NCBI GenBank assembly: GCA_951406725.2
Contig: OX597817.1
Span: 60,450,001 to 60,514,000 of the forward strand
Source: Octopus vulgaris
Lineage: Eukaryota
DNA: 64,000 nucleotides
Reading direction: 5' to 3'
Position numbers and translations under genes: made by a program. The number at the start of each line of letters is the position of its first letter. The first letter of the stretch is position 1. This document shows positions 29,784 through 32,610 of this stretch, piece by piece. The notes beneath the pieces were generated by a model that was not told the origin of the DNA, did no database searches, and saw only the letters and a list, made by a program, of their open reading frames with translations.

Positions 29784-29882
29784 ATTATTATTATCATTAT
29801 TATTATTATTATTATTATTATTATTATTATTATTATTATTATTATTATTATTATTATTATTATTATTATTATTATTATTATT
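29784..29882. repeat. (ATT)n microsatellite, the 3' tail or target of the Dong-like element
   Basis: About 33 ATT units. Confidence 0.95.
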
Positions 29883-30278
29883 GCCTTTGCACAGATTCTA
29901 ACACTGGAGATGTATTACAGTGTCAGCTGTTCACTACCAGTGAACTAAGCTAATACCCCTTATTTTTCGAGCATCATCCGGAGTATTCGAGTGGTTCCAA
30001 GCGGTGCTCTTTTCTGCAAGTGCTCCACCCTTATTGCAGCCCCTATTTGTTCCACGTACTTCTCGAGATTTTGGCTCACTGTTCCCAGGGCTCCGACAGT
30101 TATTGGTACTACTGCTACCTTTTTCATCGACCACAACCGCTTTACTTCCCAAGCTAACCTGTTCATATCTCTCGACTTTTCTTTCTTCCTTATCACACAC
30201 CTTGGTGTCAGCTGGGCATGCTATATCTATGATCCAGCATAGTTTGCTTTCTATCTCAATTCAGGCTATGTTCGGCTT
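29883..30278 (-). mobile_element. 5'-truncated R4/Dong-like LINE (RLE C-terminus plus 3' UTR)
   Basis: KPNIA*IEIESKLCWIIDIACPADTKVCDKEERKVERY..LAWEVKRLWSMKKVAVVPITVGALG..LQK..LGTTRILR; ends in (TAA)n on its own strand. Confidence 0.9.
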
Positions 30279-32455
30279 AAACAAGGGGGACGTTATAGGG
30301 AATTTCCGGCCCATCACTCTGCTCAATGCAGAGTTGAAGATTTTGGCCAAGGTGCTAGCCAAGAGATTGGCGCTTGTCGTGGACAAGCTGGTCGGCAAGA
30401 CGCAGACATGCGCCGTGCCGACCAGGTCGATACACGACAACCTCCATCTCATGCGCTACATCATAGAGAGGGCGGGTAACGACGCTGGCGCGGGTGGGGC
30501 TTTGATCAACTTGGATCAGAGTAAAGCCTTCGATAGGGTCGACCATCGGTACCTGGCAGCTGTCCTCAGGGCAGCCGGCTTCGGTCCAGTCTTCCGCGGG
30601 TGGATCGCTGCTTTATACAGCAACATCTGCTCGGTGATACGGGTGAACGGTCACCTTTCGGAACCGTTCGACATCTCGCGTTCGGTCCGCCAAGGATGCC
30701 CTCTCTCCTCCCTCTTGTACATTTTGACTCTCGAGCCATTACTGCGCAAGTTGGAGGCTTTGAGGGGTATCCCGCGCGATCTAGGAGGCGGAAACAGCGT
30801 GTCTGCTTATGCCGACGACGTCACCGTGGTGGTGTCGAGCCACAGGCACATTGGCCTGATTGGCGAGACGCTAAACCAGTACGAAGCGGTGACAGGGGCA
30901 AAGATTAACGCGGAAAAGTCCGTGGGCTTGCAACTGGGCACCTGGAGAGGCAAGCCCATGCCGTCCAACAGCGTCGTAGGGCGCTGGACAGACGGACCCG
31001 TTAAACTGCTCGGGGTCTGGTTCGGTCCGGACCTCCAGGTGGATAAGAACTGGGAAGAGGTGACGAGCAGGGTGGCACGTCTCACCCAGAAATGGGCCGA
31101 GAGGAAGCTGTCCCTGAAAGGTCGAGCGGAGGTGGCGAATGCGTACATCGCATCCGTCATCTATTACCGCTTGACCGTCGTCCCTTGTCCCGACCGCTGG
31201 TTGGCCAAGCTGGTACGTCTGCTCTTCGACTTTTTGTGGAAGGGTCAGGTGCCACTGGTCAGGCGATCCATCTGCTGTCAACGACCGCTGAACGGAGGCC
31301 TTGGAATGCCGTGGCTACTGTTGCGCAGACATGCGCTCAGGCTGCGGCATCTCAAGCGCTTCCTAGACGGTGAACAGGTGTGGTCGTCTTTTGTCAGACG
31401 CGATTTTCCGCAGCTCGTCTCTTTGACGGAACTGCAGACCTGGATCAAACGTAGACCGAGAAAGGGCGCTTGGCACCTCGAGTGCCGTCAAGCCCTCTCC
31501 GCCCTCCGCCAGGCGGGCAATGCGGTCGGTTACAGCTCCACTCTAGCGTTCTATAGAGGGTTAGTGGAGGAAAAATGCGACGACGTTCTCGGGGAAACTC
31601 TAGGCGTTGAAGATGACGAACTGTGCGGTCTGTTCGGGAGGACTTTCGGGCCGGGGCCGATGGATAATTTCCAGAGGTCTCTCGCTTGGCAGTGCTACCG
31701 AGGGGCTCTGCCTGTTCGAGATAAACTCTACCGGCACGGAAGTGCCGTCAGCCGGGCCTGCCCGAGGTGTTGCCAGGACGACGAAACCGTCCTGCACGCA
31801 CTCGTCCAGTGCCCGAGTATTGCTGAAATATGGGTTTATGTCGAACAGCTACTGTCACGTATAGGACGGATCCGACTATCGGCCGAATCCATAGTGAAGA
31901 TTGCCCCGCCGACCTCCTTTAACAAGGAGGGCGAGGCCGTTTTCTTGTGCCTAGTGGCTGTGGCGAAAGAGGTGGTGTAGTGGACTCGTTTGAAAGGGCT
32001 AAAGACAGACACTTTCCTCTTTGGTCAAGGCCTCATCAACTTTTTCAAGTTTCACTTGAAAAGGAAGATGAGGTTAGAGAGGAAAGTGCTGTCCGATAGC
32101 AAGTTTTATGAAAGGTGGGTGAATTGTGCGAGACTGGCCTGTATAAATGGACCAGTTCTCAGGTTTCGCCTGTGATTTCAAAGAAAAAGGTAATGTAAAA
32201 GGAGAAGAAAGGGGACTCTCTACACCCCTCTTTTTTTGACCAGGCTCCCGTTGGCTTTTGTAGGGTTTTTTCCACCAGGAACCTTTCGAAACGTCTCCCC
32301 CTTTTGGGAGTTTTTCATTGTTGAATTTTATAAGTTGTTATAAAGATTTTTACTCGATGTTTTTGAAAAACGGCAAAACCCTTTGTAACCTTTCGTCCTG
32401 TCTTGTCCATTTATGTAATCATGCGTGTCAGCCCTTGTGGCCAATAAAAAAGAAT
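30279..32455 (+). mobile_element. 5'-truncated Tx1-clade LINE, copy 2
   Basis: RT, zinc finger and 3' UTR ending GCCCTTGTGGCCAATAAAAAAGAA, followed by (ATT)n; GC-rich against the background. Confidence 0.93.
30280..32175 (+). pseudogene. Tx1-type ORF2: reverse transcriptase plus zf-RVT, lacking the APE domain, with one premature stop
   Basis: NFRPITLLN, LDQSKAFDRVDH, VRQGCPLS, AYADD, CPRC..ETVLHALVQC; TAG at 31978-31980 where copy 1 has TGG; the frame continues to 32175. Confidence 0.92.
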
Positions 32456-32457
32456 TG

Positions 32458-32610
32458 ATTATTATTATTATTATTATTATTATTATTATTATTATTATTA
32501 TTATTATTATCATTATTATTATTATTATTATTATTATTATTATTATTATTATTATTATTATTATTATTAATATTATTATTATTATTACTATTATTATTAT
32601 CATTGTTATC
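32458..32610. repeat. (ATT)n microsatellite 3' of the Tx1 element
   Basis: About 50 ATT units. Confidence 0.95.

What the first reader, a model, noticed from the sequence alone, without database searches (positions are those of the whole stretch)
29784..32610. Spacer-less 5'-to-5' fusion of two unrelated LINE clades inside an (ATT)n repeat
Seen: a minus-strand R4/Dong-like fragment runs up to 30278 (..KPNIA) and a plus-strand Tx1 RT fragment starts at ~30279 (NKGDVIGNFRP) with no intervening DNA. Both 3' ends face outward, and both abut (ATT)n in the same orientation. Known: Dong elements target TAA repeats, and twin priming produces inverted 5' junctions from a single RNA. Inference: one integration event in which opposite target strands primed two different RNAs (trans twin priming), or a later insertion plus deletion. 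The fusion also creates the artificial 658-aa ORF.
Basis: partly seen in the sequence, partly recalled or inferred. Interest (0 to 1): 0.7.

Follow-up and report, generated by a model that had tools for sequence, protein, structure and literature searches.

The report
Nested repeat-targeting LINEs, two separate insertions
An old, decayed jumping-gene fragment sits directly against a much younger jumping gene of another kind, likely because both aim at the same three-letter repeat from opposite strands and the newcomer landed beside the old one and lost the repeat between them, which would make this an ordinary nested insertion rather than a new mechanism.

Summary
The structure is real in the assembly: a Dong/R4-like 3' fragment (minus, 29883-30278) abuts a 5'-truncated Tx1-like copy (plus, 30279-32457) with no spacer and no microhomology. 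The Dong half has no copy closer than 92% in the genome search, lies 7.1% from its nearest sampled copy and carries a stop and a frameshift. The Tx1 half lies 0.46% from its nearest copy. The head-to-head orientation follows from targeting: this Tx1 family ends in (ATT)n in 79 of 80 copies, Dong in (AAT)n. Losing the left-hand repeat is common: 19 of 47 truncated Tx1 copies have no ATT at the 5' junction. Of 99 other Tx1 5' flanks, 10 hold a Dong-like neighbour, all head-to-head, two with no spacer. Best reading: sequential insertion into one microsatellite with loss of the spacer. One other locus (L148) has two young halves and remains a candidate for a same-time event. No independent reads or empty allele were obtained. 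The scan had already noted the ATT-targeting Tx1 family elsewhere in this genome (e1-9936060).

The parts
29784..29882 (.). (ATT)33 array; the (AAT)n 3' tail and target of the Dong-like fragment
   Evidence: other copies of the family end in (AAT)n or (AAC)n at the same base
29883..30278 (-). 396-bp 3' fragment of an old Dong/R4-like element (family A): end of the REL endonuclease plus 3' UTR; stop at about 30261-30263 and a 1-bp insertion at about 30162
   Evidence: 31% identity to the REL domain of an intact RT-REL frame
30279..32457 (+). 2179-bp 5'-truncated copy of a young 5.87-kb (ATT)n-targeting Tx1-like LINE: RT, zinc finger, 3' UTR; private stop at 31978-31980
   Evidence: full-length copies carry APE endonuclease, RT and zf-RVT
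29944..31980 (+). accidental open frame: about 112 codons of antisense Dong running into the Tx1 RT frame; likely not a gene
32458..32609 (.). (ATT)50 array: Tx1 target, and tail of the older REL fragment to its right
32610..32890 (-). about 280-bp 3' fragment of a second, older REL (Dong/R4-like) family (family B); best other copy 83%

Best explanation
An old Dong-like fragment and a young Tx1-like copy touch 5' to 5' here, likely because they arrived in two separate insertions into one (ATT)n/(AAT)n microsatellite. Shown: the two halves differ about 15-fold in distance to their nearest sampled copies; the Tx1 family has (ATT)n after its 3' end and the Dong-like families have (AAT)n, so a Tx1 at a Dong's 5' side can only lie head-to-head; spacer-less 5' junctions are common in this Tx1 family. 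Inferred: (1) an old family-B fragment and then the family-A fragment (396 bp, 5'-truncated) inserted into the array and decayed; (2) much later the Tx1 endonuclease nicked the AAT strand in the repeat left on Dong's 5' side and reverse transcription stopped after 2179 bases; (3) the cDNA end was joined bluntly to the Dong 5' end, the repeat units to the left of the nick being lost by target-site deletion, or absent because the nick lay at the array's edge. The long open frame is a by-product.
For: Ages: Dong half best other copy 92% among the 40 best of 4575 candidates; 23 of 396 bases differ from the column majority of 69 copies (5.8%; family median 4.65%); nearest copy 28 of 392 (7.1%). Tx1 half nearest copy 10 of 2178 (0.46%) among 57 copies, 4 private changes; Fisher p 6e-16 for the two nearest-copy counts. 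Control: the same search gives 97-99% dispersed copies for a young REL family. Targeting: 79 of 80 Tx1 copies have ATTATT within 30 nt of the 3' motif; 28 of 29 full-length copies have ATT at the 5' end. Spacer loss: 19 of 47 truncated copies, and 8 of 25 young ones, lack ATT at the 5' junction; at L146 and L113 the Tx1 joins another repeat that lacks the (ATT)n tail seen on its other copies. Continuum: 10 of 99 other 5' flanks hold a REL neighbour within 600 bp, all head-to-head, BLAST gaps 0, 0, 6, 27, 74, 119, 246, 315, 349, 479. The Dong length is ordinary (median 348.5 bp in 50 copies), and L032 is truncated at the same base and is preceded by a triplet repeat.
Against: No empty or Dong-only allele was seen, so the order rests on divergence alone. 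Only 23 of 50 family-A copies have a triplet repeat at their 5' end, so a spacer at this locus is assumed, not shown. Counting only strictly private changes the contrast is weak (3 of 396 against 4 of 2179, p 0.08); I attribute this to recurrent mutation among 69 diverged copies, which is an inference. The genome search scores only the best 40 candidates, and a source copy could be missing from the assembly. At L148 and L120 both halves are young, which age cannot order. Some of the 19 ATT-less junctions are marginal (short TTATT, CAT repeats, or an (AAT)5 insert at L119).
Confidence: 0.82

Rival explanations
1. Two separate insertions, but the spacer was lost later: a longer Tx1 with a normal (ATT)n spacer was shortened by a deletion that removed its 5' part, the spacer and perhaps some Dong sequence.
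For: Gives the same sequence. Internally shortened Tx1 copies exist (L127 1953 bp, L181 5034 bp).
Against: No microhomology at the joint; the Tx1 copy is very young, which leaves little time; 8 of 25 young truncated copies already lack the spacer; the Dong end coincides with the truncation point of L032.
Confidence: 0.1
2. One event (trans twin priming or a template switch): the two strands of a break in (ATT)n primed a Tx1 RNA and a Dong RNA, and the two cDNAs were joined 5' to 5'.
For: The geometry fits: both 3' ends face out and the joint is blunt. Junctions with two RT products in opposite orientation are reported for human L1 (10.1101/2024.08.27.596794 and PMC11702581, passages). Inverted pieces of the same element occur in these families (L168, L267).
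Against: It needs a Dong template about 99.5% identical to the Dong half; the best found is 92%. The Dong half carries a stop and a frameshift. The geometry is equally that of two ordinary insertions.
Confidence: 0.03
3. Assembly error: two repeat-bearing reads were joined across the locus.
For: I obtained no independent read across the junction.
Against: The left flank is single-copy; the joint lies in non-repetitive sequence of two unrelated families with nothing to mis-join on; the same architecture recurs at L148 and L165 with other breakpoints.
Confidence: 0.05

Closest known systems
R4/Dong non-LTR retrotransposons (PMC7998251, passages; PMC3774820, passages)
   Same: RT followed by a C-terminal REL endonuclease; (TAA)n target, reported for insects, molluscs and cnidarians.
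   Different: Here only a decayed 396-bp 3' fragment; clade not tested on a tree with named references.
Microsatellite-specific Tx1-clade LINEs: Kibi (TC)n, Koshi (TTC)n, crocodilian (TTCC)n/(TTTC)n families (PMC4494074, passages)
   Same: Two ORFs, APE endonuclease + RT + zinc finger, one simple-repeat target, head-to-tail stacks; target-site truncation is a known outcome of non-LTR insertion.
   Different: The target is (ATT)n, read on the strand opposite to Dong's. I did not see this target in the passages read or in the listings; the scan noted it before (e1-9936060).
L1 twin priming and synchronous L1 insertions (10.1101/2024.08.27.596794, passages; PMC11702581, passages)
   Same: Inverted 5' junction with outward-facing 3' ends.
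   Different: Those products come from one RNA, or from RNAs copied at the same time by one L1 protein; here the halves belong to different endonuclease classes and differ about 15-fold in divergence.

Membership tests
R4/Dong clade (left half) | RT, CCHC knuckle and C-terminal REL endonuclease in one frame | tested here: met
   Longer copy L190 shows RT, a CCHC knuckle and the REL region, broken; window fragment aligns to the REL end of an intact frame whose PDB hits are R2 proteins
R4/Dong clade (left half) | (TAA)n target | tested here: met
   3' ends of the 29 best other copies are followed by AAT- or AAC-type triplets, a few with a variant first unit; 23 of 50 have a triplet repeat at the 5' end. 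The sample was chosen for an AAT tail and does not count for the 3' side.
R4/Dong clade (left half) | RT phylogeny with R4/Dong rather than Hero, NeSL or R2 | not tested
   No named reference sequences came up; Hero families can also target microsatellites (PMC4640811, passages)
R4/Dong clade (left half) | N-terminal Myb/SANT-like domain | not tested
   No full-length family-A copy was fetched (longest about 2.3 kb)
Tx1 clade (right half) | ORF1 plus ORF2 with APE endonuclease, RT and zinc finger; L1 group | tested here: met
   1144-aa ORF2 with Exo_endo_phos, RVT_1, zf-RVT; best PDB hit L1 ORF2p, E 8.8e-51, above R2
Tx1 clade (right half) | Sequence-specific insertion | tested here: met
   79 of 80 3' ends in (ATT)n; 28 of 29 full-length 5' ends; tandem units about 5.87 kb apart
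Tx1 clade (right half) | RT phylogeny with Tx1 rather than other L1-group lineages | not tested
Twin-priming product (one event) | Both parts are the same age and have a template of that age | tested here: not met
   7.1% against 0.46% to the nearest copy; no source above 92%
Twin-priming product (one event) | Inverted 5' junction with outward-facing 3' ends | tested here: met
   not specific, since opposite-strand targeting gives the same
Twin-priming product (one event) | Empty allele lacks both parts; one target-site duplication brackets both | not testable with these tools
   A duplication cannot be read inside a triplet array; no allele data were obtained

The most novel reading that the evidence does not exclude
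Two unrelated retrotransposon machines, a REL element nicking the ATT strand and an APE element nicking the AAT strand, sometimes prime on opposite strands of one microsatellite break and finish each other's integration, leaving a cross-clade 5'-to-5' fusion. The window's locus is a poor example because of the age gap, but L148 (G000:C6:11724872-11731872; REL half 97-99% to 39 dispersed copies, Tx1 half 99.5%, no spacer) is not excluded.
Probability: 0.06. Interest if true: 0.7.

Novelty: new member of a known kind. Interest (0 to 1): 0.15.

Why it matters
As it stands it matters little: it is one more nested insertion. It does show that, in this genome, REL elements and an APE element compete for one microsatellite from opposite strands, so that head-to-head pairs, and long chance reading frames across them, are expected and should not be annotated as genes or read as single events without an age test. 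If a young-young pair such as L148 proved to have no single-element allele, it would be a natural case of two retrotransposon classes completing one integration, which would bear on how second-strand nicking and 5' joining are done.

Tried and rejected
Read support and empty allele: contigs of four public runs (X1, X15, X2, X16) were laid on 29883-30400 and 30205-30305. No listed piece spanned the junction, and at 98% likeness depth was 0 over 30253-30276 in all four; by the tool's own note a hole proves nothing, and these runs hold only about half of the sampled words, so this neither supports nor refutes the junction. Daughter copies of the fusion: none among the 40 scored hits. Dong inserted into a longer Tx1: no upstream Tx1 piece in the 6.5 kb read for the window, L148 or L120. 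L120 and L148 as mother and daughter: their Tx1 parts start one base apart but their REL parts end at 2131 and about 297 bp, and close truncation points are common (7 neighbouring pairs within 5 nt among 48 points). Enrichment of young REL-B next to Tx1: 2 of 99 Tx1 flanks against 0 of 39 young REL-B loci with a Tx1 hit of 85% or more; too few to call, and my expectation rests on a crude array count from one window. Strictly private mutation counts were uninformative. Homologue searches gave no clade names; Pfam has no hit for the REL fragment. The first family-B library held another repeat and its hits were replaced. The original Dong paper (PMC309301) is not held. A word search of earlier scan findings for this kind of junction found nothing.

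Full report
Setting. The window is G000:C4:60450001-60514000 of a 2.8-Gb assembly in 227 contigs, very rich in simple repeats. I take it to be an octopus; this is inference from size and repeat content, and earlier scan notes say the same. A paper on Octopus vulgaris lists recently active Dong-R4 (5 families, 1129 insertions) and L1-Tx1 (13 families, 421 insertions) (PMC13282606, passages).

Observation. The minus strand of 29883-30278 encodes the end of a REL endonuclease in two frames, with a stop after KPNIA and a 1-bp insertion. It aligns at 31% to the C-terminus of an intact 836-aa RT-REL frame of a related family, whose only PDB hits are R2 proteins. The plus strand from 30279 encodes RVT_1 and zf-RVT. 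In 29 of 29 other loci the match starts exactly at 30279 and the upstream letters differ. Other Dong copies continue past 30278 with letters unlike the Tx1 start. So the joint is blunt, with no insert and no microhomology. The left flank is single-copy. The right flank, 32610-32890, is the 3' end of a second REL family (family B) on the minus strand, best other copy 83%. The locus therefore holds three elements around one array.

Ages. The Dong half has no copy above 92% among the 40 best of 4575 candidates. I fetched all 56 exact matches of a 33-nt family motif. For one search I dropped 6 of 7 duplicates with shared flanks on C17, one copy present twice, the two long reference loci and one of a duplicated pair, and kept alignments of 150 bp or more, which with the loci left 69 copies. 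The window copy differs from their column majority at 23 of 396 bases (5.8%; family median 4.65%) and from the nearest copy at 28 of 392 (7.1%). The Tx1 half differs from the nearest of 57 copies at 10 of 2178 bases (0.46%) and has 4 private changes, one making the stop at 31978-31980. The nearest-copy counts differ at p 6e-16; this test ignores the choice of the nearest copy. Strictly private changes give a weak contrast (3 of 396 against 4 of 2179, p 0.08); changes found in at most 5% of copies give 13 against 5 (p 1e-7). As a control, the same genome search returns 39 dispersed copies at 97-99% for a young family-B fragment, so a young source would likely have been seen.

The Tx1 family. 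A 28-nt 3' motif has 185 exact matches, of which the first 100 (C1-C13) were listed. Removing downstream members of tandem stacks and the window left 81; I fetched 80. Full-length copies are about 5.87 kb with ORF1 and a 1144-aa ORF2 holding APE endonuclease, RT and zinc finger, nearest to L1 ORF2p among solved structures. ATTATT follows the 3' motif within 30 nt in 79 of 80; 28 of 29 full-length copies have ATT at the 5' end. Of 51 truncated copies I dropped 4 (three with further Tx1 pieces upstream, one at an N gap). Of the remaining 47, 19 have no ATT repeat at the 5' junction; among the 25 that are at least 98% identical to a full-length copy and 250 bp long, 8 have none. Some of the 19 are marginal. 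At L146 and L113 the Tx1 joins another repeat that lacks the (ATT)n tail seen on its other copies, which reads as target-site deletion (inference). Target-site truncation is a known outcome of non-LTR insertion (PMC4494074, passages).

Why head-to-head. Dong-like elements have (AAT)n on their sense strand ((TAA)n targeting in molluscs per PMC7998251, passages); this Tx1 has (ATT)n, the reverse complement. A Tx1 entering the repeat at a Dong's 5' side must lie 5' to 5' with it. In 100 Tx1 5' flanks of 600 bp (the 80, the window, and 19 of 20 further loci) 11 hold a REL hit, all head-to-head. BLAST gaps to the Tx1 are 0 (window), 0 (L148), 0 (L165), 6 (L120, a spacer of about 13 ATT-like bases), 27, 74, 119, 246, 315, 349 and 479. 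The window is thus the zero end of a range. Its Dong length is ordinary: median 348.5 bp in 50 copies, 23 of which have a triplet repeat at the 5' end; L032 is cut at the same base and preceded by a triplet repeat.

Mechanism. Shown: geometry, blunt joint, age gap, targets, frequency of spacer-less junctions. Inferred: family B, then family A, entered the array and decayed; the order of these two rests on 83% against 92% best-copy identity and is soft, since the B fragment is an A-rich UTR. The Tx1 then primed on the AAT strand in the remaining repeat, stopped at 2179 bases and was joined to the Dong end with loss of any repeat units between. A later deletion gives the same sequence and cannot be excluded without alleles. 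The open frame (678 codons stop to stop) is antisense Dong running by chance into the RT frame and ends at a private stop.

Against this reading, and what stays open. No allele without the Tx1 was seen and no independent read confirms the joint. L148 has the same architecture with two young halves: a family-B fragment of about 297 bp, 97-99% to 39 other copies, joined without spacer to 775 bp of Tx1 at 99.5%. Age cannot order it. However, three other family-B copies (L246, L255, L271) end within two bases of the same point and are followed by (ATT)n, and 33 of 39 young copies have ATT at their 5' end, which fits an ordinary copy whose spacer was lost. None of the 39 has a young Tx1 beside it.

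Comparison and novelty. Twin priming uses one RNA; junctions with two RT products in opposite orientation are described for human L1 in tumours and cell models (10.1101/2024.08.27.596794 and PMC11702581, passages only). The window works like nested, target-specific insertion and fails the same-age test for a twin-priming product. Known Tx1 microsatellite targets are (TC)n, (TTC)n, (TTCC)n and (TTTC)n. I saw no (ATT)n target and no Dong/Tx1 fusion in the listings or in the passages read; the library lacks most subscription journals, I did not see Kojima and Fujiwara 2004 or Repbase entries, and I read no supplements, where such targets may be listed. The scan had already noted the ATT-targeting family on another piece of this genome (e1-9936060). 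The names Dong/R4 and Tx1 rest on domain order and target, not on a tree. Verdict: ordinary nested insertion, interest 0.15.

Noticed in passing
L148 (G000:C6:11724872-11731872), junction near locus base 1265: Same architecture as the window with two young halves: (ATT)n, family-B REL fragment of about 297 bp (minus relative to Tx1), no spacer, 775 bp Tx1, (ATT)n. Best candidate for a same-time event.
   Followed up: partly
L120 (G000:C2:72362949-72369949) and L165 (G000:C9:42410422-42417422): Further head-to-head REL/Tx1 pairs: 2.13 kb young family B with a spacer of about 13 bases (L120); 54 bp of family B joined directly to a 5.4-kb Tx1 (L165).
   Followed up: partly
L168 (G000:C9:111570996-111577996) and L119 (G000:C2:70280125-70287125): L168: a 38-bp Tx1 end preceded by the reverse complement of its own 3' end and tail, a fold-back or twin-priming-like product. 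L119: (ATT)n switches to a short (AAT)n just before the truncated Tx1.
   Followed up: no
L267 (G000:C19:54712409-54718693), bases about 300-790: Young family-B copy with an inverted duplication of part of itself at its 5' end, between (ATT)n arrays.
   Followed up: no
G000:C4:93.79-93.84 Mb, C1:202.33-202.35 Mb, C13:14.95-14.96 Mb: Head-to-tail stacks of the 5.87-kb Tx1 unit, up to seven in a row, separated by short (ATT)n.
   Followed up: partly
L126 (G000:C2:206333167-206340167) and L289 (G000:C24:16777900-16784900): Full-length Tx1 copies with (CTT)n instead of (ATT)n on the 5' side and (ATT)n on the 3' side.
   Followed up: no
Tx1 family, reference L115 positions about 5095, 5471-5475, 5575-5581, 5612: 5' truncation points recur within a few bases in unrelated loci; family B likewise ends near 297 bp and 466 bp in several copies.
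   Followed up: no
window 32919-33132 and 33290-33510: Two copies of an abundant short repeat, each followed or preceded by (ATT)n, next to the cluster; such repeats also flank many Tx1 copies.
   Followed up: no
L222, L224-L229 (G000:C17): Seven loci share the same 268-bp Dong fragment and kilobases of flank at 96-99.6%: a multi-copy segmental duplication.
   Followed up: no
L261 (G000:C6:121444-127729), 4726-6285 minus: A third RT-REL family lies directly upstream of a near full-length family-B copy, separated by (AAT)n.
   Followed up: no
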